From: Moniliella sp. 'wahieum'
Taxonomy: Eukaryota
Length of the DNA: 64,000 nt
Direction: 5' to 3'
NCBI GenBank assembly: GCA_003971905.1
Contig: RSEE01000017.1
Location: forward strand, 310,001-374,000
The notes beneath the pieces were generated by a model. It was not told the DNA's origin. It saw nothing but the letters and a program-made list of their open reading frames with translations, and searched no databases. The translations under genes and the position numbers were made by a program. This document shows, piece after piece, positions 5,498 to 44,172 of the stretch (positions are counted from its first letter, which is position 1; each line of letters starts with the position of its first letter).

Positions 5498-5979
5498 AAA
5501 ACGGATTGAGCGGTGGTAGCAGTGTGCAGCAATAAGGGAGAGGGCGTAAAGTAGGTATATATATCTTAGAGCTTAGCGCCCTTTTAGCTGCCACGTTTTG
5601 ATGCTTGCTAATGCTACTATTAGCTTGATCATGTTCGGACGGCAACAATTATCCGACTTTTGTCCGAGCAAACACATGTGGGCCCACCTTTTGCCCTTTT
5701 GCGAGAGGCATGTGGCTTAAAGCTTAAAGGCCCTTTAGGATTAAGGCCTTAGGCCTTAGGCATTAGCACAACAGTCACCGATACCGCCACGCACCACACG
5801 CCTTGCTGCCATTGCACGATCATGGACATGATCAATATTGATTAAATTGATTAAAAATTATTTACCAACCTAATTGTTCCACAGAAGCCATTGCTCGGAC
5901 AAAGCCCGGACAAAGCAGATGCAATATGGTCACAGCGACCGGCGATGGCCGCAACACGAGAGAGTGTGATTGAGAAGGA

Positions 5980-17759: not shown

Positions 17760-18691
17760 CAGAGGCCAGATAGCAAGCCCAGCACTTGCGCTTCATGCTG
17801 TGCAGCCGCCTCCGGATCCGAGGGGAATGACAGGCCAGGAGGGATGGGGGTGCGTTCGCATCGCGTGAGATGAGTCCACGGAGATACAGATCGTACCCAC
17901 CTCCTCAATCTTCTTCACGTCGTACTACACAGACATCAGTTGGTCAGCCATGGATTCTTGCAGAGAAAAGAGGGAAGAAACAACGAACCTTGATCGAGTC
18001 AAACCTCCTCCGCAACTCATTGTTCTTGAGATTGAGCAGCTGGAAGCCAGCGTATAGGTCTTTGATAAAGTGAGAGATGACGATCGGGGTGCCTAGGTCA
18101 CCCAGAGTGACCGATGTATAAGCCAGGCGGGAAAGCTCATTGGTAACAAATGTGAGTGAGACGAGGTAGTCCTCTGCAGGCAAAAGAACCCGGTCGCCAT
18201 TCTGCGCGGGGATGCCTAAGACCTTCGTCACGCCATCAAGATGCAGCAGCTTGCCTGTTCCAATAAAGTAAGCCAGAACTGCAGCAGAGGAAAGTTGCTT
18301 GAGGGCAAAGGCAAACGTATGGTTCCATTGGTAGTATCGATGTTCGGGGACCAGCAAGATGAGCTCGGACACCAAGCTCCGGACATGGGTAAACATGGGA
18401 CCAAGCGGGCTCATGATCTTGGCACTGACCTCCGCGGCTGGAACAGCATGAACCCGGCAAGATGGGACCATATGGTACGGTAGGATTGGTCAAGTGCCTT
18501 GGACTTGTTGGAGTTTCTGGATGACGAGCGCTTATGCCGTCAGGGATGGCCGTGAGGGCACGAAGGCCAACGTACCTCGCTGAGTTCCTTGTCCTCGTCC
18601 ATCTGCAGCGCCAGGCCTGGAAGTCGAGGGAAGCAGTTAGGTCTGCGGAACCCGAACCAGGTGTAGGATTGGCTGCCGCATTGGGGTCCAT
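17760..18691 (-). CDS. Translin (C3PO subunit); 3' end approximate
   Basis: EDYLVSL...NELSRLA...VTLGD...FIKDLYAGFQLLNLKNNELRRRFDSIK, then an intron, then YDVKKIEEV.YDL.LRGL. Confidence 0.9.
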
Positions 18692-19215
18692 GATTGACGG
18701 GGGGCAGTGGTGGCGGGTAGGGTCGGAAGTCAGTTGGTCCAGTGAAGACGCGAGCCTCCAAGAAAAGGAGGAACACCAAGCATTTCAACATGAACATTTC
18801 ACCATGAGTTTCAAAGTCAAACGTTCAATTCCTTGACTCAGTCCGTTCCGCCTTCCCCTTCCGCCTCCCACCTTTTGCCGTCCTCAGTTAACAGCAGCGC
18901 CACTTCTACTTCTAGCGGTGATTGTCACTACAGGGGGCTCAGGCGCTCAGGAGGGTGGCCGAGACGTCAATGAGAGGCCTGAGATATAAGTAGGGCATAC
19001 CTGTCACGCGCATTATGCGAGATGAGGGACAGAGATTCAGGCTTGTTCGACATATTTTTGTGAGCATGCGTTGGGGAAAAGAGATGAGCATACGCACCCT
19101 CTTTACAGGTGTGAAAGACAACAGAGAAAGGCACACAGTAGAAGTCGCAGACAGAGCAGCAGACTTGGGACACGGGTGAATACAAAAGAATGTAAATCCA
19201 TCTCAGGCCTGAGCC

Positions 19216-19886: not shown

Positions 19887-20148
19887 CGTTGGCAGTGATA
19901 GCGGAAGCGGGTGCGAACGAACAAAGCAGGTGGGGATGTGCACAGTTGGTGGAGACGAAGCAAATGAGAGAGACGGCCAGTCGTAGCGCGCATTACTTGC
20001 ACATGCTGAGGCACAGGTGTCTGGGGTATCATGCACGCATGCATCAGCGTCATGCTTCCTCCCCTCCTCCCGCGTTGTGACAGCTGTATCGGCATGGCTC
20101 AACTTCTGGGTAATGAAAGAGTCAGACTGGTAGTAAAAGGGTACAAAA

Positions 20149-20308
20149 TGTCGGCCTCGCTACTACCACAGAATGTGAGCACTGAACGTCGTATTGGACT
20201 AAGAAGCTTCTGCGACTGACTCGTCCAGAAGACTGGTGCGAGCTCGGAAGGAATGAAAGCTGACTCACGTGACTCAGGGTCCGCGCGGTCCTAGGACGGA
20301 TGTCAACA
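20149..20308 (-). repeat. Copia 3' LTR
   Basis: Identical to 25034-25193; preceded on the minus strand by a short purine tract AGCGGGG. Confidence 0.95.
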
Positions 20309-20324
20309 CCCCGCTGACCGGAGG

Positions 20325-23300
20325 GCCCAGTCATGTGGACTGGATCCATCTCCTCGACGCGGAGTTGAGCAAGATGGCTTGTCAGGGCGGGACGGCCGAG
20401 AGGCTTGGTGAGGACGTCCGCTGGGTTCCTTTCGCCGGGGATGTGTACAAGTATGGCCTCGCCCGAGTCCACGTGTTGCCGTACATTGTGGTACCGGATC
20501 TTCAGCTCTCGGAGCTTGCCGGTGCTGCCAAATTTGTGGGGCGAGATCGACGACAGACTTATTGTCGCAATACCAATGAATGGGTGTACCCTCGCCGATG
20601 GCCCCAAGCTCGATCATGATGTTCTTGACATAGTTGGCGTCAACCAGTCCATCATATCCTGCCGTATATTCGGCGGCGGCGGTACTGGTAACGCTCTTCG
20701 GCTGAAGAATGGATCGCCACGACACCGGCACACCGTACACCATCAGTAGGCATCCAGATGTGGAGCGTGCCTGGATGGGATCTCCCGCCAAGTCGGAATC
20801 TGTATACAGCGCAATGGCCGGTGCATCTGATGTTGGGGTCAACCTCAGGCCCTTTCCTCGAGTATGGTACAGGTAGCGAAGGAAGTCATCGACTGCTTGA
20901 TGATGCTGCTGCGATGGGTCGGCAGCGGCTCTGCTGAGGGCCGTGATAGCGAAGAGGGAGTCAGGCCGGCCCATTCGTGCAGCCCACAGTCCCGATCCGA
21001 TCTTCCCCTGATATGCCTTGCGCAAGGCTGGGAGGGATGGGGGTTCAGGGTCGGCACGGGGCGGTATCATCCGTACGGGATGTGGGAGAGTCCGGATCCA
21101 CGGGGCTTTGATGTGGTGCTTTGCCACCACTTCCTCGATGAACTTTGGTTGGCTCAGGTACAGCTCCCCACCGATCCGATCGTATTGGCATCCCAGGTGG
21201 TAGGAAGGGGACCGTTACCACGAACATCAATGTGTGTGTTTATCTCGGCCATAAACTCCTCGTACTTTTGGTGGACTTGCATGCGAGGAGCAGATCGTCG
21301 GTGTGGACCGCCAGGAGGATCTGCTCACCCGGTGGTGCAGCGCGCACGAACAAGCAGGGCTCGGTCAAGCTTTGCGTGAAGCCGAGCTTGTCACGCAGCA
21401 GGTTCCGGATGTATCGTGCCCAGTTTGCTCCGCTCTGATGTAGCCCGTATAGACTCTCTTGAGACGCCACACGCGACCACCCGCTTCGGGGAAGTAGGGG
21501 GGTGGGCGGATGTAGACTGCTTCTTCGAGGGGGGCGTTCAGGTACGCTGCATTGACGTCCGCCGAGAAGAGGCCAAACTTATACTTCTCGGCCAGCACGA
21601 CGAGGGTCAGGATGGCAGGTGTGCGCACCGATGGTGCGAACGTCTGGCCCCAAGTCTCGGCCGATTGTTGGTGTCCGCCCGCGACAAAGCGCGCGCGGTG
21701 GCGCAGGAACCGGCCCTCGGCGTCCGTCTTTGTGGTGATGCGCCATAGTCCTATGAGGATTTGTGCACCCGGTGGTGGGTACGTAGCCTCGTAGGTGCCG
21801 TATCGCGCGAGTGTGGCCACCTCGTCGGCCATAGCCTGCTTGACCATGGCAAAGGAGGGTGAGTCTCGAGACCCTTGAGCGTCTTGGGAGCGAGGGGTAC
21901 GCCATCCTTGGTGAGCTGAACCGTGTCCGGGTGGATGGGTGCGCTGAGAGCAGTCATGGCGGCGTATTCGGGAGGTTGAACTGTGTCGGCAAACGGGGGG
22001 GCGGATGTGTAGGTAGGGGGCGGGCGATGCCGATCTCTGGTGCGGCGCAGTGGGGCGTGGCGGCTGCAGCACGAGCATGGTAGGTCGTGTCGGTGGGGTC
22101 GTCAGCGATTGGGAGTGTGTGCAGGTCGGGAGGTGCGGGTGGTGCGCTGGCGGAGGGGGGGTAGCGGCGCGGAGGGGGGGTGGTGGTGGGAGGGGTCTGG
22201 GGTGTGGCGGCGGTTCGGGGCATGGGTGCTGCCGCGGCTGGCGGAGTAGGGTTAGCGTCTTTTTCACTGTCGATTTAATTTGAGGTGATTTGGAGATGTC
22301 GGGTGGGAAGTGGTCGGGGTGGAGATGGGGGTAGATGGCGTTGCCCATTTGTACGGTTTCGACCAGCGGTAGGTGAAGGTACCCAGGGATGGTTGGTATG
22401 TGGCGAAGAGCCATCCCTTTGATCCGCGCTGATGGTGGTATCCTACCAGCATACCTTCCTTGCCCGCGCGCTGAGCTTGTGCTCGCGGCGTGACTCGGGC
22501 AGATGGAGGTATGCAAGGCGGCCAAAGGGTTGCATCGGTAACGAGTATGCGTGGCCTTGTATCGCTCAAATCGCGATTTGTTGTCTTCCCCGGATGTTTT
22601 GAGTGGCATTTGGTTTTGGGTGAAGCACGCAGCGTGGAGGCTGTGTTCCCACCAGTCCGACGTCGGAAGACCTGTACCAAGAGCAACTGCCTTGCACGAG
22701 TCGTTATGGTTCGGATGGCACGCTCAGCCACACCGTTGCTAGCACTCTGCCCCGGGATTGTCCGTTCTGACGTGATGCCTTGCTCGTCCAGAAAAGGTTG
22801 CAGTGCGCTTGTCAATTCGGGGGCGTTGTCCGTGCGCAAAGTCCGCAGCAGTCTGTCCGGGCCGTAGCGTTGCCGCAATATGAGGTTCCGCAGTTCCTTC
22901 GTTGCAGCGCCCTTTGTCGGGATCGCTGTGGTGAAGACGTACCGCGTGAAGTCATCAACGGCGACGAGGGCGTATCCGTGCCCCATGCCGGTTACCCGGG
23001 GGAGGTCTACTACGTCGACGTGGAGGACCTCGAAAGGTCTTTTGGATCGGAGGCGGTCCCGGCTCGGATGGGGCGATGCTGTCGCTAGTGCCACCGCGCA
23101 TGTTGGGCAATCCCACTCTGAACGACAGAGGGAGATATGCTTGGCTGTGACGCGGAGGCCTGCGGTTTCCGATCGTGTAAGCCAGGGGAGGAGGTCGATG
23201 GCTGCGTGGTTCCAGCGTTTGTGGGCTTTAGAGACGTGGTCCAGGGCCAGGGATGCTGCGAGGGAGTTTGGGGTTGAGGGTGGGTCGGCCGGTTTGATCG

Positions 23301-23731
23301 GTTTGGTCGCCATGGCCCGCAGGGGTGTGGGTGGCGTTCGCGGGTTGTGTAAGATCGTGAATTGATAGTCACTGCCGGTTACTTTTCGTAGGGTGGATCC
23401 TGGGTTACCAAGCCAGATACCCTTCTGGTGTGGGGCGAAGTATGATGCGATTCCGGTGTTCGACAGGTGTGCTACACTGACGAGATTTCGGGCTGAAACG
23501 GGGCATGTATAGGCTGTTGGGGAGTTTTATCTCCATTTGGTGTCCTCCTAAGCATCGGATACGGATTGTGGCCGTGCCTCGTCCTTCCGCCTTTACATGT
23601 GTCCCGTTAGCAACCTCTATCTCGTCGTCGCAAGGGGTCATGGATGTGAAGACGGATTTGTCTTTCCAAATGGATGGGAATGCCCCACTGTCATATAATG
23701 CCCGGATGATTCGCATTTCGCCCCCGAGTTC
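20325..23731 (-). CDS. pol: Copia pol (PR-IN-RT-RNase H), broken by indels
   Basis: Domain motifs distributed over ORFs 23405-23716, 22264-23313, 21365-22609, 21240-21470, 20303-21130 and 20122-20607. Confidence 0.9.
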
Positions 23732-24979
23732 CTAGTAGTCAGCTGTGCCCGCATCAACGTCAATCACTTCAGACTCGGGAGAGCTCGCTCTCTGAGCGAC
23801 GTGAGCGTTGGCTCGGCCTGGGTTGCGCGGAGGGACAACAGGTTTATTAGACGTCGCGCTGCGCCAGGGTTGGTTGGTGCGGTCTTGCCCCTTGGTCTTT
23901 GTGTCCGCGAGGTTGTCGTCGCCGGCTTTGCCCCCGCTGGAGTTTTTTCCCCCGCTGGTGGGTCGTCCCCCGCTGTCGGGTCGAGTCCAAGGCGTTCCTC
24001 CGTTGACCGGCTTGCCTCCGTTTCTCTTCCTTTCTCCACCGGGATACGTGGCGGCTGGTATGTCCATCACGGCCTGCCGTAACTTGTCTAGACTCGAGCG
24101 CTCTTCACGCTGGCGAATGCTCATGTCGCGTAAGCCGAGTAGGATCCCAGTGCGTTCCTGCTCTTCCGTAAGTGGGATGCCCGCTCGCGTCAGGCTTGCA
24201 CTGATCTCTTCCATGTAGTCGAGGTAGTCTCGACCCGATCGGTTTCCTTGGTCGGCCGAAAAGTAGCGAATGAGTAGAGGCCCTCTGTTTGCGGTAGGCG
24301 TATATCCATACCGCTGACGCAGCATGTTCAGCGTGTCCTGGGTGCATGATATTTCGTGGTGGGTGCGGATCGTCCGGAAGAGGGTTGACGGCATGGCTTC
24401 CCTAAGAAGGTTGTGCAAGCGTCTGTCGAGGTCCTCGGTGAAGTAGCGGGAGCTGCGACCATTCTGGACGACGTCGCTTGCGTGGGGGTGGGCATCTGTT
24501 ATCGCGAAGAGAAATTCGTCTTCCCAAGCGCTGTAGGCGGACGGGTCTTTGTTCAGATCAGGCCACTTGATATTCTTGGTGGGAGACTCGCGTAGTGATC
24601 TGTAAAGGTCGTACTCGGGTCGCGAGGCTGCGCCTGTAGGTGCCCCCAAAGTTGCGTTGGGTTGAGTTTCCATTTGGTGGATGTTTTGCACCACAAAATT
24701 CGTAGCCCGTCGAACCCAGTTTGTCGTGATAGACGTAGGTTCGTCCTTCCATCCAAGCCACTCGGCTCTGTCGTGTATAGCTCTGTTGATCTTCTCTTTA
24801 ACGACATCGATGTCGTTCGTCTTCTTGAACCACAGGTGCGCTTCGGCGCAAAGCATCATGAGTTCCTCGTTGTCGGTGCCAATCGGTGGCGGATCGCGAC
24901 CGGTTGGTGTCCAGTAATCGCGCTTGTTCACCATTGTGGTGTCGCTGACCGAGAGATCGGTGTTAGCGTTGGCGCCCAT
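23732..24979 (-). CDS. gag: Copia gag (no CCHC knuckle seen)
   Basis: Open ORF from MGANANTDL, with YSAWEDEF-type motif; lies between the 5' LTR and the protease and ends in TAG. Confidence 0.85.
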   Translation of the reverse strand: MGANANTDLSVSDTTMVNKRDYWTPTGRDPPPIGTDNEELMMLCAEAHLWFKKTNDIDVVKEKINRAIHDRAEWLGWKDEPTSITTNWVRRATNFVVQNIHQMETQPNATLGAPTGAASRPEYDLYRSLRESPTKNIKWPDLNKDPSAYSAWEDEFLFAITDAHPHASDVVQNGRSSRYFTEDLDRRLHNLLREAMPSTLFRTIRTHHEISCTQDTLNMLRQRYGYTPTANRGPLLIRYFSADQGNRSGRDYLDYMEEISASLTRAGIPLTEEQERTGILLGLRDMSIRQREERSSLDKLRQAVMDIPAATYPGGERKRNGGKPVNGGTPWTRPDSGGRPTSGGKNSSGGKAGDDNLADTKTKGQDRTNQPWRSATSNKPVVPPRNPGRANAHVAQRASSPESEVIDVDAGTADY

Positions 24980-25033: not shown

Positions 25034-25193
25034 TGTCGGCCTCGCTACTACCACAGAATGTGAGCACTGAACGTCGTATTGGACTAAGAAGCTTCTGCGA
25101 CTGACTCGTCCAGAAGACTGGTGCGAGCTCGGAAGGAATGAAAGCTGACTCACGTGACTCAGGGTCCGCGCGGTCCTAGGACGGATGTCAACA
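25034..25193 (-). repeat. Copia 5' LTR
   Basis: Identical to 20149-20308. Confidence 0.95.
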
Positions 25194-25228
25194 CAAATGG
25201 CCCAATTGTGTTGAATAGCCCAAAAAAT

Positions 25229-25324
25229 TGCTTCAAAGGGAATCGAACCCCTGTCACATCGATGTCTGATGGACACTGACGCCATGCCTGGCAACGATGT
25301 AGTATACCACTAACCCATGGAAGC
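25229..25324 (-). tRNA. tRNA-Gly(GCC) with 26-nt intron (25263-25288)
   Basis: GCTTCCA acceptor 5' arm, TGGGTTAGTGGTA A-box, CATCG-TTGCCA^T-CGATG anticodon arm, GGTTCGATTCC B-box, TTTTTT terminator. One G is missing from the 3' acceptor strand (likely an assembly error). Confidence 0.85.
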
Positions 25325-25703: not shown

Positions 25704-25796
25704 CGACAATGACAGGACTCGAACCTGTGCAGGCAAAGCCTAATTGATGTTTCGAAGCGATTCGAATCAATCCCTTAACCGCTCGGGCACATTGCC
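25704..25796 (-). tRNA. tRNA-Ser(CGA) with 12-nt intron (25749-25760)
   Basis: GGCAATG/CATTGTC acceptor, ATTGA-TTCGAA^A-TCAAT anticodon arm, long variable arm AGGC-TTT-GCCT, GGTTCGAGTCC, discriminator G, TTTTT terminator. Confidence 0.9.
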
Positions 25797-27190: not shown

Positions 27191-30100
27191 GTCACATGTC
27201 ACATCCCCTGTCACAGCCCCTGCATGTCACAGCCCCTGCATGTCACAGCCCATGTCACAGCCCATGTCACAGCCCATTCACATGTGATCGCACGTGTCAC
27301 GTCGCACTCCTAGTAGTGGGTGCGTCCCCCTCGCATCAAGAGGTCCAGTCGAGGATGATATTCAATGCCTCCTCTCCCACAGCTTCATCCCCACGGGCAT
27401 TCCTAGATCCCTTCTCTCCAGCGTTACTATCCACTTCATCTACCCAGACGCCCGTTTTCCATACCTTGGCCTCACATCCTGCTATGCAATACTATATGTC
27501 AACACATTGTAGTTTTAAACCAATCTCATTCTTCAACGATCAACACAACAACGAAACGAAGACGAAAACAAAACGAAAACAAAGTCATTGGTCCAGGTCC
27601 CATGCGTCCACCATTTCCACCTCAGGGCAATACACCTCCTCCACCATGTCCCATGCATCCTGCATCTCCACCTCTGGGCAATGCACCTCCACCACCACCG
27701 GCCCATGGCGACGCTTGCGCACGGTCACGCGAGGCTCGGCCGTGTTGACATCGAACCTGGCCCGAGGCACCGCTGGCGCCAGCACCCGCTCCTCAGCCGC
27801 CTTTGGCTTCTTGCGCAGGATCGAAGGCTGGCTGGGCGTTGCGATCGTGCCCAACTTGGAAGTTCGGATGCTCGGATGGGAATGATGGGCGCCAGCCAGT
27901 AGCGGGGGGGGGTGTAGTTAGATGGCAGACCCGGGCTCGTGGTAGAGGAGAGAGGCGGAAGGTGAACTGGAACTCGGTCAGAGGCGGGAGGGGCAGCATT
28001 TCGGTACTGGGTGAGCGGTTCGAGAAGGTAGGTGGTGGGAGGGAGACAAGAAGTTTTGCACCCATCCGAGGTTACTTATGCCCCCGCCCCCGCCGCCGTT
28101 GGGGCAATATGAGGCATTTTGCCCCAACGGCGGGGAGCACACTGCCCTCAGGCCTCAGGCCGCGCCTCGGCTTCAGCACACTGTGCTACCTCGACTGCTC
28201 CCATGCGGCGTGACGTGTACCTCGGAGCAGGCCGGGCAGCACACTGCCTCAAGCCTCAGGCCGCTGCCTCGGCTTCAGCACACTGTGCTACCTCGACTGC
28301 TGCCGTGCGGTGTGACATGTATCTCGGAGCAGGCCGGGTAGCACGCTGCCCTCAGGCCTCAGGCCCAACCCTCAGGCCTTAACCCAGCCCAGCGGTGGAT
28401 AATGCCGGACGCAGATCGGAATTCCCACGGTGGCCAAACCGGCCCAGACCGACGGACCGTGCGCGTCGCGGCTCCACTTGGGGAGGTAGGTTGTCTCCTC
28501 CGTTCTGCTTGGCCTTTGTTGATGAACGCCAGAGGTCCAACCAAAGGGTAGGCCGTTCGTGAAGGACATGGGTACCTGGCTGAAATGGAAGGGTTAGATC
28601 AGTGGACAAGGAGAGGAGAAGAGATGGAACATACACCTTGACCGCAACATAAGAAGCGTGGGTTGGCCTTTGAAGAGCGCCCATGTTCTGGGACGAGCAT
28701 GTATGCGCCCAGTACCGACACAATGTCCATTGCCCCACCGTCAACGAGACTGAATGGGCCGACTCATCCACTGGTTACCGGCTCTTCTGGTGGTCGCCAG
28801 CACTGACGCGGCTCGCAATGGCTTGCCCCATCCTTCCGCCAATCATCCGTGTGCCCGCTGTACTTCGATGAGCGCCAATGCCGCCAATGCCACGGTGGCC
28901 AAACCGGCCCAGACCGACGGATCATGCGCCGTCGCGGCTCCACTCTTGGTAGGTACGCTTTCTCCTCCATTTGCTTGGCCTTTGTTGATGAGCGCCAGAG
29001 GTCCAACCAAAGCGTAGGCCGTGCCGTGAAGGACATGGGTACCTGGCCGAAATGGAAGGGTTAGATCAGTGGAGAGGAGGAGAGGGAGATGGAACATACT
29101 TGACCGCAACATAAAGAGAATCGTCGGTTGGCCTTTGAAGAGCGCCCATGTGGCGTCCCGACGGCCACATGCTGGCGATGAGGGATGGAGATGGAATCCA
29201 AGAGCTAAGGAGAGCCAGAGCTATGGGCCTGGATGGGCTCCTGGGGTGGAGGCCAGTGGAAGCTCGTGGAAGGTCCGCAGCTCACTGCCCCGGTGCCCTG
29301 TGTGCATCGGGCCACGTCTCAGCCGAGCTCTTTTGTCGGCGTACCGACGACCGCGGCGGGCTCGCATTGCACATTTCAACTCCGCGTTCCCCATGGGGAT
29401 GCGGCCCATGTCACATGTCACATCCCCTGTCACAGCCCTGCATGTCACAGCCATGTCACAGCCCATGTCACAGCCCATTCACATGTGATCGCACGTGTCA
29501 CGTCGCACTCCTAGTAGTGGGTGCGTCCCCCCTCGCATCAAGAGGTCCAGTCGAGGATGATATTCAATGCCTCCTCTCCACACAGCTTCATCCCCACGGG
29601 CATTCCTAGATCCCTTCTCTCCAGCGTTACTATCCACTTCATCTACCCAGACGCCCGTTTTCCAACCCTTGGCCTCACATCCTGCTATGCATACTATATG
29701 TCAACCACATTGTAGTTTTAAACCAATCTCATTCTTCAACGATCAACACAACAACGAAACGAAGACGAAAACAAAACGAAAACAAAGTCATTGGTCCAGG
29801 TCCCATGCGTCCACCATTTCCACCTCAGGGCAATACACCTCCTCCACCATGTCCCATGCATCCTGCATCTCCACCTCTGGGCAATGCACCTCCACCACCA
29901 CCGGCCCATGGCGACGCTTGCGCACGGTCACGCGAGGCTCGGCCGTGTTGACATCGAACCGGCCCGAGGCACCGCTGGCGCCAGCACCGCTCCTCAGCCG
30001 CCTTTGGCTTCTTGCGCAGGATCGAAGGGCCTGGCTGGGCGTTGCGATCGTGCCCAACTTGGAAGTTCGGATGCTCGGATGGGAATGATGGGCGCCAGCC

Positions 30101-32000
30101 AGTAGCGGGGGGGGGTTGTAGTTAGATGGCAGACCCGGGCTCGTGGTCAGAGGAGAGAGGCGGAAGGTGAACTGGAACTCGGTCAGAGGCGGGAGGGGCG
30201 ATTTCGGTACTGGGTGAGCGGTTCGAGAAGGTAGGTGGTGGGAGGGAGACAAGAAGTTTTGCACCCATCCGAGGTTACTTATGCCCCGCCCCCGCCGCCG
30301 TTGGGGCAATATGAGGCATTTTTGCCCCAACGGCGGGAGCACACTGCCCTCAGGCCTCAGGCCGCGCCTCGGCTTCAGCACACTGTGCTACCTCGACTGC
30401 TCCCATGCGGCGTGACGTGTACCTCGGAGCAGGCCGGGCAGCACATGCCCTCAAGCCTCAGGCCGCTGCCTCGGCTTCAGCACACTGTGCTACCTCGACT
30501 GCTGCCGTGCGGGTTTGTGACATGTATCTCGGAGCAGGCCGGGTAGCACGCTGCCCTCAGGCCTCAGGCCCAACCCTCAGGCCTTAACCCAGCCAGCGGT
30601 GGATAATGCCGGACGCAGATCGGAATTCCCACGGTGGCCAAACCGGCCCAGACCGACGGACCGTGCGCCGTCGCGGCTCCACTTGGGGAGGTAGGTTGTT
30701 CCTCCGTTCTGCTTGGCCTTTGTTGATGAACGCCAGAGGTCCAACCAAAGGGTAGGCCGTTCCGTGAAGGACATGGGTACCTGGCTGAATGGAAGGGTTA
30801 GATCAGTGGACAGGAGGAGAGGAGAAGAGAGATGGAACATACCTTGACCGCAACATAAGAAGCGTGGGGTTGGCCTTGAAGAGCCCCATGTTCTGGGACG
30901 AGAATGTATGCGCCCAGTACCGACACAATGTCCATTGCCCACCGCAACCGAGACTGAATGGGCCGACTCATCCACTGGTTCCGGTCTCTTCTGGTGGTCG
31001 CCAGCACTGACGCGGCTCGCAATGGCTTGCCCCACTTCCGCCAATCATCCGTGTGCCCGCTGGTACTTCGATGAGCGCCAATGCCGCCAATGCCACGGTG
31101 GCCAAACCGGCCCAGACCGACGGATCATGCGCCGTCGCGGCTCCACTCTTGGGTAGGTACGCTTCTCCTCCATTCTGCTTGGCCTTTGTTGATGAGCGCC
31201 AGAGGTCCAACCAAAGCGTAGGCCGTGCCGTGAAGGACATGGGTACCTGGCCGAAATGGAAGGGTTAGATCAGTGGAGAGGAGGAGAGGAGAGATGGAAC
31301 ATACCTTGACCGCAACATAAAGAGAATCGTCGGTTGGCCTTTGAAGAGCGCCCATGTGGCGTCCCGACGGCCACATGCTGGCGATGAGGGATGGAGATGG
31401 AATCCAAGAGCTAAGGAGAGCCAGAGCTATGGGCCTGGATGGGCTCCTGGGGTGGAGGCCAGTGGAAGCTCGTGGAAGGTCCGCAGCTCACTGCCCCGGT
31501 GCCCTGTGTGCATCGGGCCACGTCTCCAGCCGAGCTCTTTTGTCGGCGTACCGACGACCGCGCTGCGGGCTCGCATTGCACATTTCAACTCCGCGTTCCC
31601 CATGGGGATGCGGCCCATGTCACATGTCACATCCCCTGTCACAGCCCCTGCATGTCACAGCCCATGTCACAGCCCATGTCACAGCCCATTCACATGTGAT
31701 CGCACGTGTCACGTCGCACTCCTAGTAGTGGGTGCGTCCCCCCTCGCATCAAGAGGTCCAGTCGAGGATGATATTCAATGCCTCCTCTCCACACAGCTTC
31801 ATCCCCACGGGCATTCCTAGATCCCTTCTCTCCAGCGTTACTATCCACTTCATCTACCCAGACGCCCGTTTTCCATACCCTTGGCCTCACATCCTGCTAT
31901 GCAATACTATATGTCAACCACATTGTAGTTTTAAACCAATCTCATTCTTCAACGATCAACACAACAACGAAACGAAGACGAAAACAAAACGAAAACAAAG

Positions 32001-32483
32001 TCATTGGTCCAGGTCCCATGCGTCCACCATTTCCACCTCAGGGCAATACACCTCCTCCACCATGTCCCATGCATCCTGCATCTCCACCTCTGGGCAATGC
32101 ACCTCCACCACCACCGGCCCATGGCGACGCTTGCGCACGGTCACGCGAGGCTCGGCCGTGTTGACATCGAACCTGGCCCGAGGCACCGCTGGCGCCAGCA
32201 CCCGCTCCTCAGCCGCCTTTGGCTTCTTGCGCAGGATCGAAGGGCCTGGCTGGGCGTTGCGATCGTGCCCAACTTGGAAGTTCGGATGCTCGGATGGGAA
32301 TGATGGGCGCCAGCCAGTAGCGGGGGGGGTGTAGTTAGATGGCAGACCCGGGCTCGTGGTCAGAGGAGAGAGGCGGAAGGTGAACTGGAACTCGGTCAGA
32401 GGCGGGAGGGGCAGCATTTCGGTACTGGGTGAGCGGTTCGAGAAGGTAGGTGGTGGGAGGGAGACAAGAAGTTTTGCACCCAT
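32001..32483 (-). CDS. Orphan 160-aa protein encoded once per array unit (intact copy, unit 3)
   Basis: ATG...TGA ORF followed by a T-rich tract; an internal 17-aa duplication shows synonymous third-position changes. Confidence 0.55.
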   Translation of the reverse strand: MGAKLLVSLPPPTFSNRSPSTEMLPLPPLTEFQFTFRLSPLTTSPGLPSNYTPPATGWRPSFPSEHPNFQVGHDRNAQPGPSILRKKPKAAEERVLAPAVPRARFDVNTAEPRVTVRKRRHGPVVVEVHCPEVEMQDAWDMVEEVYCPEVEMVDAWDLDQ

Positions 32484-34222
32484 CCGAGGTTACTTATGCC
32501 CCCGCCCCCGCCGCCGTTGGGGCAATATGAGGCATTTTTGCCCCAACGGCGGGGAGCACACTGCCCTCAGGCCTCAGGCCGCGCCTCGGCTTCAGCACAC
32601 TGTGCTACCTCGACTGCTCCCATGCGGCGTGACGTGTACCTCGGAGCAGGCCGGGCAGCACACTGCCCTCAAGCCTCAGGCCGCTGCCTCGGCTTCAGCA
32701 CACTGTGCTACCTCGACTGCTGCCGTGCGGTGTGACATGTATCTCGGAGCAGGCCGGGTAGCACGCTGCCCTCAGGCCTCAGGCCCAACCCTCAGGCCTT
32801 AACCCAGCCCAGCGGTGGATAATGCCGGACGCAGATCGGAATTCCCACGGTGGCCAAACCGGCCCAGACCGACGGACCGTGCGCCGTCGCGGCTCCACTT
32901 GGGGAGGTAGGTTGTCTCCTCCGTTCTGCTTGGCCTTTGTTGATGAACGCCAGAGGTCCAACCAAAGGGTAGGCCGTTCCGTGAAGGACATGGGTACCTG
33001 GCTGAAATGGAAGGGTTAGATCAGTGGACAGGAGGAGAGGAGAAGGAGATGGAACATACCTTGACCGCAACATAAGAAGCGTGGGTTGGCCTTTGAAGAG
33101 CGCCCATGTTCTGGGACGAGCATGTATGCGCCCCAGTACCGACACAATGTCCATTGCCCCACCGTCAACCGAGACTGAATGGGCCGACTCATCCACTGGT
33201 TCCGGTCTCTTCTGGTGGTCGCCAGCACTGACGCGGCTCGCAATGGCTTGCCCCACTTCCGCCAATCATCCGTGTGCCCGCTGGTACTTCGATGAGCGCC
33301 AATGCCGCCAATGCCACGGTGGCCAAACCGGCCCAGACCGACGGATCATGCGCCGTCGCGGCTCCACTCTTGGGTAGGTACGCTTTCTCCTCCATTCTGC
33401 TTGGCCTTTGTTGATGAGCGCCAGAGGTCCAACCAAAGCGTAGGCCGTGCCGTGAAGGACATGGGTACCTGGCCGAAATGGAAGGGTTAGATCAGTGGAG
33501 AGGAGGAGAGGAGAGATGGAACATACCTTGACCGCAACATAAAGAGAATCGTCGGTTGGCCTTTGAAGAGCGCCCATGTGGCGTCCCGACGGCCACATGC
33601 TGGCGATGAGGGATGGAGATGGAATCCAAGAGCTAAGGAGAGCCAGAGCTATGGGCCTGGATGGGCTCCTGGGGTGGAGGCCAGTGGAAGCTCGTGGAAG
33701 GTCCGCAGCTCACTGCCCCGGTGCCCTGTGTGCATCGGGCCACGTCTCCAGCCGAGCTCTTTTGTCGGCGTACCGACGACCGCGCTGCGGGCTCGCATTG
33801 CACATTTCAACTCCGCGTTCCCCATGGGGATGCGGCCCATGTCACATGTCACATCCCCTGTCACAGCCCCTGCATGTCACAGCCCATGTCACAGCCCATG
33901 TCACAGCCCATTCACATGTGATCGCACGTGTCACGTCGCACTCCTAGTAGTGGGTGCGTCCCCCCTCGCATCAAGAGGTCCAGTCGAGGATGATATTCAA
34001 TGCCTCCTCTCCACACAGCTTCATCCCCACGGGCATTCCTAGATCCCTTCTCTCCAGCGTTACTATCCACTTCATCTACCCAGACGCCCGTTTTCCATAC
34101 CCTTGGCCTCACATCCTGCTATGCAATACTATATGTCAACCACATTGTAGTTTTAAACCAATCTCATTCTTCAACGATCAACACAACAACGAAACGAAGA
34201 CGAAAACAAAACGAAAACAAAG

Positions 34223-34705
34223 TCATTGGTCCAGGTCCCATGCGTCCACCATTTCCACCTCAGGGCAATACACCTCCTCCACCATGTCCCATGCATCCTG
34301 CATCTCCACCTCTGGGCAATGCACCTCCACCACCACCGGCCCATGGCGACGCTTGCGCACGGTCACGCGAGGCTCGGCCGTGTTGACATCGAACCTGGCC
34401 CGAGGCACCGCTGGCGCCAGCACCCGCTCCTCAGCCGCCTTTGGCTTCTTGCGCAGGATCGAAGGGCCTGGCTGGGCGTTGCGATCGTGCCCAACTTGGA
34501 AGTTCGGATGCTCGGATGGGAATGATGGGCGCCAGCCAGTAGCGGGGGGGGTGTAGTTAGATGGCAGACCCGGGCTCGTGGTCAGAGGAGAGAGGCGGAA
34601 GGTGAACTGGAACTCGGTCAGAGGCGGGAGGGGCAGCATTTCGGTACTGGGTGAGCGGTTCGAGAAGGTAGGTGGTGGGAGGGAGACAAGAAGTTTTGCA
34701 CCCAT
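34223..34705 (-). CDS. Orphan 160-aa protein (intact copy, unit 4)
   Basis: Identical translation to 32001-32483; frameshifted copies end at 27585, 29788, 36443 and 38654. Confidence 0.55.
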   Translation of the reverse strand: MGAKLLVSLPPPTFSNRSPSTEMLPLPPLTEFQFTFRLSPLTTSPGLPSNYTPPATGWRPSFPSEHPNFQVGHDRNAQPGPSILRKKPKAAEERVLAPAVPRARFDVNTAEPRVTVRKRRHGPVVVEVHCPEVEMQDAWDMVEEVYCPEVEMVDAWDLDQ

Positions 34706-37700
34706 CCGAGGTTACTTATGCCCCCGCCCCCGCCGCCGTTGGGGCAATATGAGGCATTTTTGCCCCAACGGCGGGGAGCACACTGCCCTCAGGCCTCAGG
34801 CCGCGCCTCGGCTTCAGCACACTGTGCTACCTCGACTGCTCCCATGCGGCGTGACGTGTACCTCGGAGCAGGCCGGGCAGCACACTGCCCTCAAGCCTCA
34901 GGCCGCTGCCTCGGCTTCAGCACACTGTGCTACCTCGACTGCTGCCGTGCGGTGTGACATGTATCTCGGAGCAGGCCGGGTAGCACGCTGCCCTCAGGCC
35001 TCAGGCCCAACCCTCAGGCCTTAACCCAGCCCAGCGGTGGATAATGCCGGACGCAGATCGGAATTCCCACGGTGGCCAAACCGGCCCAGACCGACGGACC
35101 GTGCGCCGTCGCGGCTCCACTTGGGGAGGTAGGTTGTCTCCTCCGTTCTGCTTGGCCTTTGTTGATGAACGCCAGAGGTCCAACCAAAGGGTAGGCCGTT
35201 CCGTGAAGGACATGGGTACCTGGCTGAAATGGAAGGGTTAGATCAGTGGACAGGAGGAGAGGAGAAGAGAGATGGAACATACCTTGACCGCAACATAAGA
35301 AGCGTGGGTTGGCCTTTGAAGAGCGCCCATGTTCTGGGACGAGCATGTATGCGCCCCAGTACCGACACAATGTCCATTGCCCCACCGTCAACCGAGACTG
35401 AATGGGCCGACTCATCCACTGGTTCCGGTCTCTTCTGGTGGTCGCCAGCACTGACGCGGCTCGCAATGGCTTGCCCCACTTCCGCCAATCATCCGTGTGC
35501 CCGCTGGTACTTCGATGAGCGCCAATGCCGCCAATGCCACGGTGGCCAAACCGGCCCAGACCGACGGATCATGCGCCGTCGCGGCTCCACTCTTGGGTAG
35601 GTACGCTTTCTCCTCCATTCTGCTTGGCCTTTGTTGATGAGCGCCAGAGGTCCAACCAAAGCGTAGGCCGTGCCGTGAAGGACAGGGTACCTGGCCGAAA
35701 TGGAAGGGTTAGATCAGTGGAGAGGAGGAGAGGAGAGATGGAACATACCTTGACCGCAACATAAAGAGAATCGTCGGTTGGCCTTTGAAGAGCGCCCATG
35801 TGGCGTCCCGACGGCCACATGCTGGCGATGAGGGATGGAGATGGAATCCAAGAGCTAAGGAGAGCCAGAGCTATGGGCCTGGATGGGCTCCTGGGGTGGA
35901 GGCCAGTGGAAGCTCGTGGAAGGTCCGCAGCTCACTGCCCCGGTGCCCTGTGTGCATCGGGCCACGTCTCCAGCCGAGCTTTTTGTCGGCGTACCGACGA
36001 CCGCGCTGCGGGCTCGCATTGCACATTTCAACTCCGCGTTCCCCATGGGGATGCGGCCCATGTCACATGTCACATCCCCTGTCACAGCCCCTGCATGTCA
36101 CAGCCCATGTCACAGCCCATGTCACAGCCCATTCACATGTGATCGCACGTGTCACGTCGCACTCCTAGTAGTGGGTGCGTCCCCCCTCGCATCAAGAGGT
36201 CCAGTCGAGGATGATATTCAATGCCTCCTCTCCACACAGCTTCATCCCCACGGGCATTCCTAGATCCCTTCTCTCCAGCGTTACTATCCACTTCATCTAC
36301 CCAGACGCCCGTTTTCCATACCCTTGGCCTCACATCCTGCTATGCAATACATATGTCAACCACATTGTAGTTTTAAACCAATCTCATTCTTCAACGATCA
36401 ACACAACAACGAAACGAAGACGAAAACAAAACGAAAACAAAGTCATTGGTCCAGGTCCCATGCGTCCACCATTTCCACCTCAGGGCAATACACCTCCTCC
36501 ACCATGTCCCATGCATCCTGCATCTCCACCTCTGGGCAATGCACCTCCACCACCACCGGCCCATGGCGACGCTTGCGCACGGTCACGCGAGGCTCGGCCG
36601 TGTTGACATCGAACCTGGCCCGAGGCACGCTGGCGCCAGCACCCGCTCCTCAGCCGCCTTTGGCTTCTTGCGCAGGATCGAAGGGCCTGGCTGGGCGTTG
36701 CGATCGTGCCCAACTTGGAAGTTCGGATGCTCGGATGGGAATGATGGGCGCCAGCCAGTAGCGGGGGGGGTGTGTAGTTAGATGGCAGACCCGGGCTCGT
36801 GGTCAGAGGAGAGAGGCGGAAGGTGAACTGGAACTCGGTCAGAGGCGGGAGGGGCAGCATTTCGGTACTGGGTGAGCGGTTCGAGAGGTAGGTGGTGGGA
36901 GGGAGACAAGAAGTTTTGCACCCATCCGAGGTTACTTATGCCCCCGCCCCCGCCGCCGTTGGGGCAATATGAGGCATTTTTGCCCAACGGCGGGGAGCAC
37001 ACTGCCCTCAGGCCTCAGGCCGCGCCTCGGCTTCAGCACACTGTGCTACCTCGACTGCTCCCATGCGGCGTGACGTGTACCTCGGAGCAGGCCGGGCAGC
37101 ACACTGCCCTCAAGCCTCAGGCCGCTGCCTCGGCTTCAGCACACTGTGCTACCTCGACTGCTGCCGTGCGGTGTGACATGTATCTCGGAGCAGGCCGGGT
37201 AGCACGCTGCCCTCAGGCCTCAGGCCCAACCTCAGGCCTTAACCCAGCCCAGCGGTGGATAATGCCGGACGCAGATCGGAATTCCCACGGTGGCCAAACC
37301 GGCCCAGACCGACGGACCGTGCGCCGTCGCGGCTCCACTTGGGGAGGTAGGTTGTCTCCTCCGTTCTGCTTGGCCTTTGTTGATGAACGCCAGAGGTCCA
37401 ACCAAAGGGTAGGCCGTTCGTGAAGGACATGGGTACCTGGCTGAAATGGAAGGGTTAGATCAGTGGACAGGAGGAGAGGAGAAGAGAGATGGAACATACC
37501 TTGACCGCAACATAGAAGCGTGGGTTGGCCTTTGAAGAGCGCCCATGTTCTGGGACGAGCATGTATGCGCCCCAGTACCGAACAATGTCCATTGCCCCAC
37601 CGTCAACCGAGACTGAATGGGCCGACTCATCCACTGGTTCCGGTCTCTTCTGGTGGTCGCCAGCACTGACGCGGCTCGCAATGGCTTGCCCCACTTCCGC

Positions 37701-40364
37701 CAATCATCCGTGTGCCCGCTGGTACTTCGATGAGCGCCAATGCCGCCAATGCCACGGTGGCCAAACCGGCCCAGACCGACGGATCATGCGCCGTCGCGGC
37801 TCCACTCTTGGGTAGGTACGCTTCTCCTCCATTCTGCTTGGCCTTTGTTGATGAGCGCCAGAGGTCCAACCAAAGCGTAGGCCGTGCCGTGAAGGACATG
37901 GGTACCTGGCCGAAATGGAAGGGTTAGATCAGTGGAGAGGAGAGGAGAGATGGAACATACCTTGACCGCAACATAAAGAGAATCGTCGGTTGGCCTTTGA
38001 AGAGCGCCCATGTGGCGTCCCGACGGCCACATGCTGGCGATGAGGGATGGAGATGGAATCCAAGAGCTAAGGAGAGCCAGAGCTATGGGCCTGGATGGGC
38101 TCCTGGGGTGGAGGCCAGGAAGCTCGTGGAAGGTCCGCAGCTCACTGCCCCGGTGCCCTGTGTGCATCGGGCCACGTCTCCAGCCGAGCTCTTTTGTCGG
38201 CGTACCGACGACCGCGCTGCGGGCTCGCATTGCACATTTCAACTCCGCGTTCCCCATGGGGATGCGGCCCATGTCACATGTCACATCCCCTGTCACAGCC
38301 CCTGCATGTCACAGCCCATGTCACAGCCCATGTCACAGCCCATTCACATGTGATCGCACGTGTCACGTCGCACTCCTAGTAGTGGGTGCGTCCCCCCTCG
38401 CATCAAGAGGTCCAGTCGAGGATGATATTCAATGCCTCCTCTCCACACAGCTTCATCCCCACGGGCATTCCTAGATCCCTTCTCTCCAGCGTTACTATCC
38501 ACTTCATCTACCCAGACGCCCGTTTTCCATACCCTTGGCCTCACATCCTGCTATGCAATACTATATGTCAACCACATTGTAGTTTTAAACCAATCTCATT
38601 CTTCAACGATCACACAACAACGAAACGAAGACGAAAACAAAACGAAAACAAAGTCATTGGTCCAGGTCCCATGCGTCCACCATTTCCACCTCAGGGCAAT
38701 ACACCTCCTCCACCATGTCCCATGCATCCTGCATCTCCACCTCTGGGCAATGCACCTCCACCACCACCGGCCCATGGCGACGCTTGCGCACGGTCACGCG
38801 AGGCTCGGCCGTGTTGACATCGAACCTGGCCCGAGGCACCGCTGGCGCCAGCACCCGCTCCTCAGCCGCCTTTGGCTTCTTGCGCAGATCGAAGGGCCTG
38901 GCTGGGCGTTGCGATCGTGCCCAACTTGGAAGTTCGGATGCTCGGATGGGAATGATGGGCGCCGCCAGACAGGCGGGGGGGTGTAGTTAGATGGCAGACC
39001 CGGGCTCGTGGTCAGAGGAGAGAGGCGGAAGGTGAACTGGAACTCGGTCAGAGGCGGGAGGGGCAGCATTTCGGTACTGGGTGAGCGGTTCGAGAAGGTA
39101 GTGGTGGGAGGGAGACAAGAAGTTTTGCACCCATCCGAGGTTACTTATGCCCCCGCCCCGCCGCCGTTGGGGCAATATGAGGCATTTTTGCCCCAACGGC
39201 GGGGAGCACACTGCCCTCAGGCCTCAGGCCGCGCCTCGGCTTCAGCACACTGTGCTACCTCGACTGCTCCCATGCGGCGTGACGTGTACCTCGGAGCAGG
39301 CCGGGCAGCACACTGCCCTCAAGCCTCAGGCCGCTGCCTCGGCTTCAGCACACTGTGCTACCTCGACTGCTGCCGTGCGGTGTGACATGTATCTCGGAGC
39401 AGGCCGGGTAGCACGCTGCCCTCAGGCCTCAGGCCAACCCTCAGGCCTTAACCCAGCCCAGCGGTGGATAATGCCGGACGCAGATCGGAATTCCCACGGT
39501 GGCCAAACCGGCCCAGACCGACGGACCGTGCGCCGTCGCGGCTCCACTTGGGGAGGTAGGTTGTCTCCTCCGTTCTGCTTGGCCTTTGTTGATGAACGCC
39601 AGAGGTCCAACCAAAGGGTAGGCCGTTCCGTGAAGGACATGGGTACCTGGCTGAAATGGAAGGGTTAGATCAGTGGACAGGAGGAGAGGAGAAGAGAGAT
39701 GGAACATACCTTGACCGCAACATAAGAAGCGTGGGTTGGCCTTGAAGAGCGCCCATGTTCTGGGACGAGCATGTATGCGCCCAGTACCGACACAATGTCC
39801 ATTGCCCCACCGTCAACCGAGACTGAATGGGCCGACTCATCCACTGGTTCCGGTCTCTGCTGGTGCTCGCCAGCATTGACGCTGCACGCAGTGGCACCTT
39901 GCCTCGTCCCCAACAGATCGTCCCGCACGAAGTGGTTCGTGCACCTCACCCCCTCTGCCATCCCTAAATGCGATCGACACTGGTGGGTCGGTCGGGTCCT
40001 GTCGTGCCGTTCGTCCCACACGGGTTCCCATCCCACGAAACGCCGGGGGCGGACCTCCCGCGGACATCCAACGCTGATGGCCGCAAGCCGGGCATTCTTT
40101 TTCAGGATCCGCTGGGGGACAATGCCTCCCCTTGATGATTGACAGCTTTTTTGCATGTGTGAGCTGCTCGCCACCATCCAAGTACCCTGATCCTCTCCCC
40201 GTTTTCTCGGATGAGGACAAGCTCCATTCTCCTCCGTTTCCGCTGCGATCGATCTTCTTCCGGTCTGCGCTTACAGATCAAACACGTTTTCTCGATCAGA
40301 CACATAGCCTGATCTAGCACGTTACAATCGCCAACCAGAAAGGTTGTGGCCTACTGTGCAGTTC

Positions 40365-44131: not shown

Positions 44132-44172
44132 TTATCGTTCGTCTAACCGTCAACAGGCGAGCCCGACCAGAG

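What the first reader, a model, noticed from the sequence alone, without database searches (positions are those of the whole stretch)
23690..23740. Copia gag and pol separated by a single in-frame TAG with a possible downstream pseudoknot: candidate programmed stop-codon readthrough
Seen on the minus strand: ...GAC TAC TAG GAA CTC GGG GGC GAA ATG CGA ATC ATC CGG GCA TTA TAT GAC AGT GGG GCA. The protease DSGA lies in the gag frame 14 codons after the stop, exactly at the gag/PR boundary. The LTRs are identical and the other lesions noticed are indels. Downstream, UCGGG/UCCGG and AAUGC/GCAUU could form an H-type pseudoknot (weak, by eye). Established: gag-pol readthrough is used by MLV (UAG plus pseudoknot) and Candida Tca2 (UGA) but is rare among Copia elements. 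Inference: a readthrough-type Copia lineage in this fungus.
Basis: partly seen in the sequence, partly recalled or inferred. Interest (0 to 1): 0.75.

Follow-up and report, generated by a model that had tools for sequence, protein, structure and literature searches.

The report
Copia gag ends at conserved stop
A fungal Copia retrotransposon has a single in-frame TAG between its gag and protease genes that looks inherited rather than a random lesion, an arrangement already described in a few fungal elements, and no RNA signal for reading through it was found.

Summary
On the minus strand a 415-codon gag (24979-23735) ends at TAG 23734-23732. The protease motif DSGA follows in the same frame 14 codons later, and the LTRs are identical over 161 nt.

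The TAG is probably not a private lesion. The only gag homologue found among 1.84 billion representative proteins (P0002, 28% identical) ends at exactly the same aligned residue. A related pol protein (P0006) begins 9 residues before DSGA. The element has no other in-frame stop along its best homology path.

The proposed pseudoknot is no better than chance: 189 of 300 shuffles did as well. It is also sterically implausible as drawn. No known leaky-stop context is present.

As assembled, this copy's pol carries 12 single-position frameshifts, so it cannot make Pol by any route. Whether these are real or assembly errors is open.

Copia elements with an in-frame gag/pol stop are already known in fungi (Tca2 in Candida; VdLTRE5 in Verticillium, with 159-bp LTRs and no canonical signal). 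I file this as a new, UAG-using member of that known kind. Readthrough is the likeliest mechanism but is untested. Sibling copies and the DNA of relatives could not be examined.

The parts
25034..25194 (-). 5' LTR. TG at 25193-25192, ends ...CA at 25035-25034. The repeat call includes one extra G at 25194.
   Evidence: 161 nt, 100% identical to the 3' copy; sequence read
20149..20309 (-). 3' LTR, preceded by a short purine run (AGCGGGG), a candidate polypurine tract
25194..25198 (-). Candidate target-site duplication: ATTTG here against TTTTG at 20144-20148 (4 of 5 bases match)
   Evidence: read by eye
23735..24979 (-). gag ORF, 415 codons, start in context CAACCATGG. No Pfam family and no CCHC zinc knuckle.
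   Evidence: Homologous to P0002. The Atlas look-alikes are Ty/Copia Gag clusters at 0.88-0.92, a weak lead.
23732..23734 (-). In-frame TAG ending gag; the codon in question
   Evidence: same end position as P0002
23408..23731 (-). Protease segment in the gag frame, 108 codons. DSGA is at 23692-23681 and the ATG at 23716-23714. The true frame leaves this ORF at about 23488.
   Evidence: Pfam Pol_BBD, E = 4.4e-08; alignment to P0006
20303..23526 (-). Rest of pol (integrase, RVT_2 reverse transcriptase, RNase H region), spread over three frames. Frameshifts lie near 23488, 22677, 22546, 22460, 22335, 22273, 22010, 21855, 21457, 21275, 21204 and 20539.
23732..23767 (-). Speculative 36-nt in-frame mini-intron (GTGATT ... 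CTGAC ... TAG) whose removal would delete the stop. The donor is weak, and I estimate about a 1-in-10 chance of such a pattern arising at random.
   Evidence: read by eye. One host intron for comparison, also read by eye: 18575-18517, 59 nt, GTACGT donor, CTGAC branch.
23460..23700 (-). Stretch with above-average predicted RNA stability, starting about 30 nt after the stop
   Evidence: z = -3.4, second lowest of 38 windows; 6 of 38 windows at or below -2; 23740-23500, z = -2.0, 6 of 200 shuffles as good
25229..25324 (-). tRNA gene. Its 3' end and T-run lie about 35 nt upstream of the 5' LTR, marking the insertion site.
   Evidence: Rfam tRNA, 39.9 bits

Best explanation
The TAG is the authentic gag terminator, inherited within a lineage of fungal Ty1/Copia elements that keep gag and pol as two ORFs in the same frame. 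Ribosomes normally stop here and make Gag. In autonomous members of the lineage, a small fraction must get past the UAG to make Gag-Pol. The simplest route is near-cognate decoding of UAG (readthrough), as inferred for Tca2 and VdLTRE5, with a stimulatory signal that is not a local MuLV-type pseudoknot and remains unknown.

Shown here: the stop, its frame, and its conservation at the protein level.

Inferred: that bypass happens at all, and that it happens by readthrough.

The window's own copy, as assembled, can only make Gag, because its pol has 12 frameshifts. Either it is a pol-defective element mobilised in trans, or the frameshifts are assembly errors.
For: 1. The stop is in frame, 14 codons before the protease Asp.
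2. HMMER against 1.84 billion representative proteins, using gag-X-PR as query, gave 3 hits. Only one was a gag homologue: P0002, 410 aa, E = 3.6e-17. Its BLASTP alignment runs to residue 409 of 410 against 414 of our 415.
3. Aligned end to end without gaps, the last 26 residues score 45. The best of the 384 other offsets scores 11, and 0 of 5000 shuffles reached 45. Both gag ORFs therefore stop at the same codon despite 28% identity.
4. No gag-pol fusion protein with this gag appeared, which has no length filter.
5. P0006 (41% identical pol, 1210 aa) starts 9 residues before DSGA. P0005 (54% identical) starts at integrase and sits on a contig of the same length (5089 nt) as P0002's.
6. This is the only in-frame stop in the element on the P0005 path, and gag has no frameshift.
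7. The LTRs are identical.
8. There is precedent in fungi: Tca2 (PMC2194720, passages) and VdLTRE5, a Copia with 159-bp LTRs, a UGA stop and no CARYYA (PMC3441728, passages).
Against: - No readthrough signal was found. The local fold is weaker than its shuffles (z = +1.22) and pseudoknot potential is at chance (189 of 300 shuffles).
- The context UAC-UAG-GAACUC matches none of the contexts named in the passages read: CARYYA, AA upstream of the stop, or UGA-CU.
- UAG-G is not a recognised leaky tetranucleotide in yeast (recalled, not from a call).
- Only one gag relative exists, seen as a predicted protein only. Its stop codon, and the frame of the pol that follows it, could not be seen.
- Pol of this copy is broken 12 times, so the copy gives no evidence that bypass is under selection.
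- For Tca2, the junction alone did not give readthrough in S. cerevisiae (PMC2194720, abstract and passages). So 'readthrough' is unproven even for the type example.
- No sibling copy is in the window.
Confidence: 0.45

Rival explanations
1. The TAG is the genuine gag terminator, but Pol is made without decoding it. Three routes are possible: (a) removal of a 36-nt in-frame mini-intron (23767-23732) that ends at the AG of the TAG; (b) termination-reinitiation or internal initiation at AUG 23716, five codons after the stop; (c) a separate pol transcript from an internal promoter.
For: - GTGATT...CTGAC...TAG spans exactly 12 codons. CTGAC is also the branch-like motif of a host intron read by eye.
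- AUG 23716 has an A at -3.
- P0006 also begins with Met, 9 residues before the Asp, against 8 here.
- A minor promoter was found in the Tca2 gag-pol junction, and local sequence did not drive readthrough there (PMC2194720).
- Copia elements elsewhere regulate gag and pol by splicing (Drosophila copia, cited in PMC2194720; Arabidopsis, PMC5580714, seen only in the search listing and abstract start).
Against: - The donor lacks the usual G at +5. The 36 nt is well below the 59-nt host intron, and the branch A is only 7 nt from the acceptor.
- By my rough estimate, an in-frame GT plus a CTRAY motif upstream of any TAG arises by chance about 1 time in 10.
- A Pol starting 8 residues before the catalytic Asp would lack the usual N-terminal strands of a retropepsin (recalled) and any Gag tether for packaging.
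- P0006's start is a gene caller's choice, not evidence of initiation.
- The last 12 gag residues are conserved as protein, so they are not merely intronic.
Confidence: 0.2
2. The TAG is a private nonsense mutation or a base-call error in a dead copy of an element whose family has a continuous gag-pol ORF.
For: - The copy is defective as assembled, with 12 frameshifts.
- Most Copia elements have one ORF. More distant single-ORF relatives run straight through this region (P0004, P0003, P0007).
- Fungal TEs often carry stop codons (PMC3248453, passages).
- No sibling copy could be checked.
Against: - It is the only in-frame stop in about 1,460 homology-checked codons (gag, PR and the P0005 path).
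- It coincides to the codon with the end of the only gag homologue. A random hit there has odds of roughly 1 in several hundred.
- The window is 58% G+C with no AT-rich RIP-like signature.
- The LTRs are identical.
Confidence: 0.12
3. The family is really a frameshift-type element. An assembly indel in the 36 nt between TAG and the protease motif has falsely put protease in the gag frame.
For: - The +1 frame is open from 23763 across the stop to 23638.
- One-base frameshifts occur about every 300 nt in pol.
- Two host genes also look as if they have one-base deletions in G runs (by eye; not confirmed).
Against: - It needs an error in one specific 36-nt stretch, about a 10% chance at the observed density.
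- No Ty1- or Ty3-like slippery site was seen by eye in the 30-nt overlap.
- Gag has no frameshift over 1245 nt.
Confidence: 0.05

Closest known systems
VdLTRE5, a Ty1/Copia element of Verticillium dahliae (Amyotte et al. 2012, PMC3441728; passages read)
   Same: Copia of a filamentous fungus with very short LTRs (159 bp against 160-161 bp here). GAG and POL sit in one frame separated by a single stop. There is no CARYYA motif after the stop. Low copy number.
   Different: Its stop is UGA, not UAG. It is 5555 bp against about 5045 bp here. Its two copies were reported as full-length, whereas this copy's pol is frameshifted as assembled.
Tca2 (pCal) of Candida albicans (Forbes et al. 2007, PMC2194720; abstract and passages)
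   Same: Ty1/Copia with gag and pol in the zero frame, separated by one stop. The bypass mechanism is unresolved and not explained by local sequence.
   Different: Tca2 has UGA followed by an 8-nt purine-rich spacer and a conserved potential pseudoknot. Here the stop is UAG and no structure is better than chance. The host is a yeast. Relatedness was not tested.
Murine leukaemia virus gag-pol readthrough (as summarised in PMC2194720)
   Same: A UAG between gag and pol in the same frame, with protease as the first pol domain.
   Different: MuLV needs a purine-rich spacer and a defined pseudoknot, and is read through at about 5%. No such pseudoknot is supported here. MuLV is a retrovirus, not a Copia element.
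Tj1, Tcry1 and Tosmo1-3, Ty3/Gypsy elements of fission yeasts (Jia et al. 2023, PMC10085805; passages)
   Same: Fungal LTR retrotransposons with a lineage-conserved in-frame gag/pol stop. For Tj1 the stop is reported to be essential for transposition.
   Different: They belong to the Gypsy superfamily. They have a strictly conserved GAA-TGA-CT context that matches known leaky UGA contexts. No comparable context is present here.
Single-ORF Copia elements that set the Gag:Pol ratio by splicing (Drosophila copia, cited in PMC2194720; Arabidopsis Copia, PMC5580714, listing and abstract start only)
   Same: Same superfamily and same PR-IN-RT-RH order.
   Different: Those have no stop between gag and pol; a spliced RNA makes Gag alone. 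Here a stop makes Gag the default product.

Membership tests
Ty1/Copia (Pseudoviridae) LTR retrotransposon | Direct LTRs with TG...CA ends flanking an internal coding region | tested here: met
   161-nt repeats, 100% identical, 4885 nt apart; TG and CA ends read
Ty1/Copia (Pseudoviridae) LTR retrotransposon | Domain order PR - IN - RT(RVT_2) - RNase H | tested here: met
   Pfam Pol_BBD, rve and RVT_2 in that order on the minus strand. The RNase H region aligns to P0005 and P0006, but the last ORF piece gave no Pfam hit.
Ty1/Copia (Pseudoviridae) LTR retrotransposon | 5-bp target-site duplication | tested here: inconclusive
   ATTTG against TTTTG, 4 of 5
Ty1/Copia (Pseudoviridae) LTR retrotransposon | Primer-binding site complementary to a tRNA next to the 5' LTR | not tested
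   The sequence after the LTR (GAGTTACATCC...) does not start with TGG. No tRNA set of this organism was compared.
Programmed stop-codon readthrough of gag-pol (MuLV type) | A single stop between gag and pol, with pol in the same frame | tested here: met
Programmed stop-codon readthrough of gag-pol (MuLV type) | The stop is conserved at this codon in relatives | tested here: inconclusive
   1 of 1 gag homologues ends at the same aligned residue. Its DNA, its stop codon and the frame of its pol could not be seen. Sibling copies were not available.
Programmed stop-codon readthrough of gag-pol (MuLV type) | A stimulatory pseudoknot or stem-loop beginning about 8 nt after the stop | tested here: not met
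   MFE z = +1.22. H-type enumeration: 189 of 300 shuffles as good. The knot as drawn has no linker between the 3' arms of stem 1 and stem 2. My enumeration is crude (stacking energies only, no pseudoknot folding program).
Programmed stop-codon readthrough of gag-pol (MuLV type) | Measured readthrough, or a Gag-Pol fusion product | not testable with these tools
   Needs a reporter assay, ribosome profiling or proteomics.
Context-driven leaky stops (CARYYA type; UGA-CU type) | The hexanucleotide CARYYA after the stop, or UGA followed by CU/CUAG, or AA just before the stop | tested here: not met
   The context is UAC UAG GAACUC. The motifs are as named in PMC3441728 and PMC10085805.
Tca2 / VdLTRE5-type Copia (in-frame gag stop without a canonical signal) | Copia element with an in-frame stop at the gag/PR boundary and no CARYYA | tested here: met
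   literature
Tca2 / VdLTRE5-type Copia (in-frame gag stop without a canonical signal) | Phylogenetic relatedness to Tca2 or VdLTRE5 | not tested
   Their sequences were not on hand, and the DNA collections available here hold no fungal genomes.

The most novel reading that the evidence does not exclude
A deep-branching clade of fungal Copia elements keeps a gag-terminating stop but expresses Pol by a route not yet described for LTR retrotransposons. One candidate is excision of a 36-nt in-frame micro-intron whose acceptor AG is the last two bases of the TAG, so that splicing makes Gag-Pol; this is the reverse of the Drosophila and plant Copia logic. The other is termination-reinitiation at the AUG five codons downstream, as some mycoviruses do. 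Either would also offer an answer to the unresolved Tca2 bypass problem.
Probability: 0.1. Interest if true: 0.7.

Novelty: new member of a known kind. Interest (0 to 1): 0.4.

Why it matters
How Copia elements with an in-frame gag stop make Pol is still unresolved, even for the type case: the Tca2 junction alone does not drive readthrough in yeast (PMC2194720).

A second, very divergent lineage that keeps the stop at the same codon, with UAG and no local structure, would give comparative material. Elements whose gag proteins are 28% identical could be used to look for the real signal.

It would also show that this organisation is older and wider in fungi than two isolated reports suggest. In itself it is a modest addition, not a new mechanism.

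Tried and rejected
- **Gag alone in the word-indexed protein search:** no hit among 3920 candidates. A profile of gag plus P0002 returned only P0002.
- **Cluster look-up for P0002, P0003 and P0004:** the query was not sent because the database is switched off. Names and taxa of these proteins are therefore unknown.
- **AlphaFold2 of the 140 residues spanning the stop, with a 5-sequence alignment** (first run interrupted; rerun): mean pLDDT 56.6. Only residues 54-113 were confident. Residues 1-53, which include the stop and DSGA, were below 50. It says nothing on whether the protease fold needs residues encoded upstream of the stop.
- **Gypsy-type element as a control:** I first took the stop at 48253-48255 in the Gypsy-type element (43952-49686) as a control for 'identical LTRs plus a nonsense mutation'. 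This was wrong. The true integrase frame is a different one, so that stop comes from frame changes, not from a nonsense mutation.
- **Are the frameshifts homopolymer errors?** 7 of 12 have a run of 4 or more within 20 nt, against about 0.44 expected per site from run density. That is not clearly enriched.
- **Random assembly noise:** two 2222-nt tandem-repeat copies differ by a single one-base indel and no substitution. Random errors are therefore rare, but systematic ones would be shared between copies and go unseen.
- **Frameshifts in host genes:** I suspected them by eye in a cytochrome-b5-reductase-like gene and a translin gene. A PDB search and a Pfam scan of the alternative frame gave nothing. 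Unproven.
- **Gao et al. 2003** (survey of recoding signals) is not held. What I say about it rests on citations in other papers.
- **ESM Atlas:** gag look-alikes are Ty/Copia Gag clusters at 0.88-0.92, a weak lead only.
- **ARAGORN** found no tRNA, although Rfam found two.
- **Frameshifting as the gag-pol mechanism:** rejected for the sequence as assembled, because protease is in the gag frame.
- **Not checked at all:** No DNA of relatives could be fetched.

Full report
**What is there**

On the minus strand the window holds one Ty1/Copia LTR retrotransposon.
- Two 161-nt direct repeats (25034-25194 and 20149-20309) are 100% identical and lie 4885 nt apart.
- They begin with TG and end with CA. 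They are flanked by ATTTG and TTTTG, a 4-of-5 target-site duplication.
- The first ATG after the 5' LTR (24979, context CAACCATGG) opens a 415-codon gag that ends at TAG 23734-23732.
- The same frame continues for 108 codons. It carries an ATG at 23716-23714, the protease motif DSGA with its Asp as the 14th codon after the stop, and a Pfam Pol_BBD match (E = 4.4e-08).
- Integrase (rve) and reverse transcriptase (RVT_2) follow in the Copia order.

**State of this copy**

Pol is not one ORF. I wrote a frameshift-aware alignment to the two closest pol proteins found.
- Against P0005 there are 11 frameshifts: 10 look like one-base deletions and 1 like a one-base insertion. There is no in-frame stop, and 625 of 964 aligned positions are identical.
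- Against P0006 there is one more shift, between protease and integrase near 23488.
- The poorer P0006 path crosses one stop, at 21956, in a badly aligned linker.
- Gag shows no frameshift: it gives a single tblastn segment against P0002.

This pattern is odd for in-place decay: 12 single-base frameshifts, no nonsense codon, identical LTRs and an intact gag. Two explanations remain.
- The lesions were inherited by a pol-defective, gag-competent element that was mobilised in trans.
- They are systematic assembly errors.

I could not decide between these.
- Only 7 of 12 shifts lie near a run of 4 or more identical bases.
- Two 2222-nt tandem-repeat copies differ by a single one-base indel.
- Two host genes look by eye as if they also have one-base deletions in G runs. 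A PDB search and a Pfam scan did not confirm this.

**Is the TAG a lesion or a feature?**

This is the key question, and the evidence favours a feature.
- HMMER of gag-X-protease against 1.84 billion representative proteins, with no length filter, gave 3 hits.
- The only gag homologue, P0002 (410 aa, E = 3.6e-17, 28% identical), aligns up to its residue 409 of 410, against residue 414 of our 415.
- Anchored at the two C-termini without gaps, the last 26 residues score 45 in BLOSUM62. The best of the 384 other offsets scores 11, and 0 of 5000 shuffles reached 45.
- Two gag genes this far apart therefore stop at the same codon.
- No protein fusing this kind of gag to pol was found.
- The closest pol proteins are also separate ORFs. 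P0006 (41% identical) starts MPANLPAQHDSGA, 9 residues before the catalytic Asp.
- More distant Copia proteins (P0003, P0004, P0007) run from gag into protease without a break. The split is therefore a trait of this sub-lineage, not of Copia in general.

Limits of this evidence:
- There is one gag relative only.
- Relatives were seen as predicted proteins, not DNA.
- Their stop codon and the frame of their pol are unknown.
- The starts of P0005 and P0006 are gene-caller choices.

**RNA signals**

- The 116 nt from the stop fold less well than their shuffles (-24.6 against -29.1 kcal/mol, z = +1.22).
- I enumerated H-type stem pairs starting within 12 nt of the stop, using stacking energies only. 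The best sums to -18.3 kcal/mol, against -19.1 +/- 4.4 for 300 dinucleotide shuffles, and 189 shuffles did at least as well.
That linker has to span stem 1, so the geometry is implausible (textbook H-type geometry, recalled).
- The context UAC-UAG-GAACUC matches none of the leaky contexts named in the papers read.
- One lead remains. The stretch 23700-23460, starting about 30 nt after the stop, has z = -3.4, the second lowest of 38 windows across the element. However, 6 of 38 windows reach -2 or lower, and without DNA of relatives no covariation test is possible.

**Mechanism**

Protease is in the gag frame, so frameshifting is out for the sequence as assembled. The options are as follows.
- **Low-level decoding of UAG (readthrough).** This is the best explanation, at 0.45.
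- **Bypass without decoding the stop (0.2).**
  - A 36-nt in-frame mini-intron, GTGATT...CTGAC...TAG (23767-23732), would remove exactly 12 codons including the stop. Its donor is weak and it is far shorter than the one host intron I could read (59 nt).
  - Reinitiation or internal initiation at AUG 23716.
  - An internal promoter, as was found in Tca2.
- **A private lesion or base-call error (0.12).**
- **A frameshift-type element disguised by an assembly indel (0.05).**

**Comparison with what is known**

An in-frame stop between gag and pol is rare in Copia, but it is in print.
- **Tca2 of Candida albicans** has UGA and a potential pseudoknot. The junction alone did not give readthrough in S. 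cerevisiae, and the authors conclude the bypass is non-canonical (PMC2194720, abstract and passages).
- **VdLTRE5 of Verticillium dahliae** is a Copia with 159-bp LTRs, a UGA stop and no CARYYA. Its authors call the organisation 'very rare' (PMC3441728, passages).
- **Gypsy elements of fission yeasts** keep a conserved GAA-TGA-CT (PMC10085805, passages).

The element here shares the short LTRs, the architecture and the lack of a canonical signal with VdLTRE5. It differs in using UAG. Whether it is phylogenetically close to VdLTRE5 or Tca2 was not tested. The survey of Gao et al. 2003 is not held.

**Verdict**

- The pseudoknot is not supported.
- The stop is most likely an inherited feature of a small fungal Copia lineage.
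- Readthrough is plausible but unshown.
- This copy's pol is broken as assembled.

I rate it a new member of a known kind, interest 0.4.

The decisive data are sibling copies, raw reads and the DNA of the relatives' contigs.

Noticed in passing
window 25229-25324 and 25704-25796, minus strand: Two tRNA genes by Rfam (39.9 and 41.5 bits; 93-96 nt, so probably intron-bearing). ARAGORN found none. The Copia 5' LTR starts about 35 nt after the 3' end of the nearer tRNA, just past its T-run, which suggests tRNA-gene-proximal integration.
   Followed up: partly
window about 27200-40000: Tandem array of about six 2.2-kb units with spacing 2201-2223 nt. Two adjacent units (31163-33384 and 33385-35606) are identical apart from one single-base indel. 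Content and function were not examined.
   Followed up: partly
window 43952-49686, plus strand: Second LTR retrotransposon, of Ty3/Gypsy type (RT_RNaseH then rve). At least 128 nt of its LTRs are identical. Its coding region is also split over several frames.
   Followed up: partly
window 4409-5572, minus strand: Cytochrome-b5-reductase-like gene. Its FAD_binding_6 and NAD_binding_1 ORFs are separated by a single in-frame TGA (4963-4961) with no AG acceptor after it. By eye another frame reads through the missing linker, suggesting one-base deletions in G runs. PDB and Pfam checks did not confirm this.
   Followed up: partly
window 17947-18700, minus strand: Translin-family gene (Pfam E = 6.3e-33) with a likely 59-nt intron at 18575-18517 (GTACGT donor, CTGAC branch, CAG acceptor). 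By eye there is a possible one-base frame change near 18455 in a G run.
   Followed up: no
window 20303-23526, minus strand: In the Copia pol, 10 of the 11 frameshifts against P0005 are one-base deletions and none is accompanied by a nonsense codon, while gag (1245 nt) has none. This is an unusual lesion spectrum that may reflect assembly chemistry rather than biology.
   Followed up: partly
window 55234-57905, plus strand, and 60420-60788, minus strand: Host genes that place the window in a fungus: a C2H2 zinc-finger ORF, a Fungal_trans transcription-factor domain, and an SH3-domain ORF. There is also an F-box-like ORF at 1228-1668.
   Followed up: no
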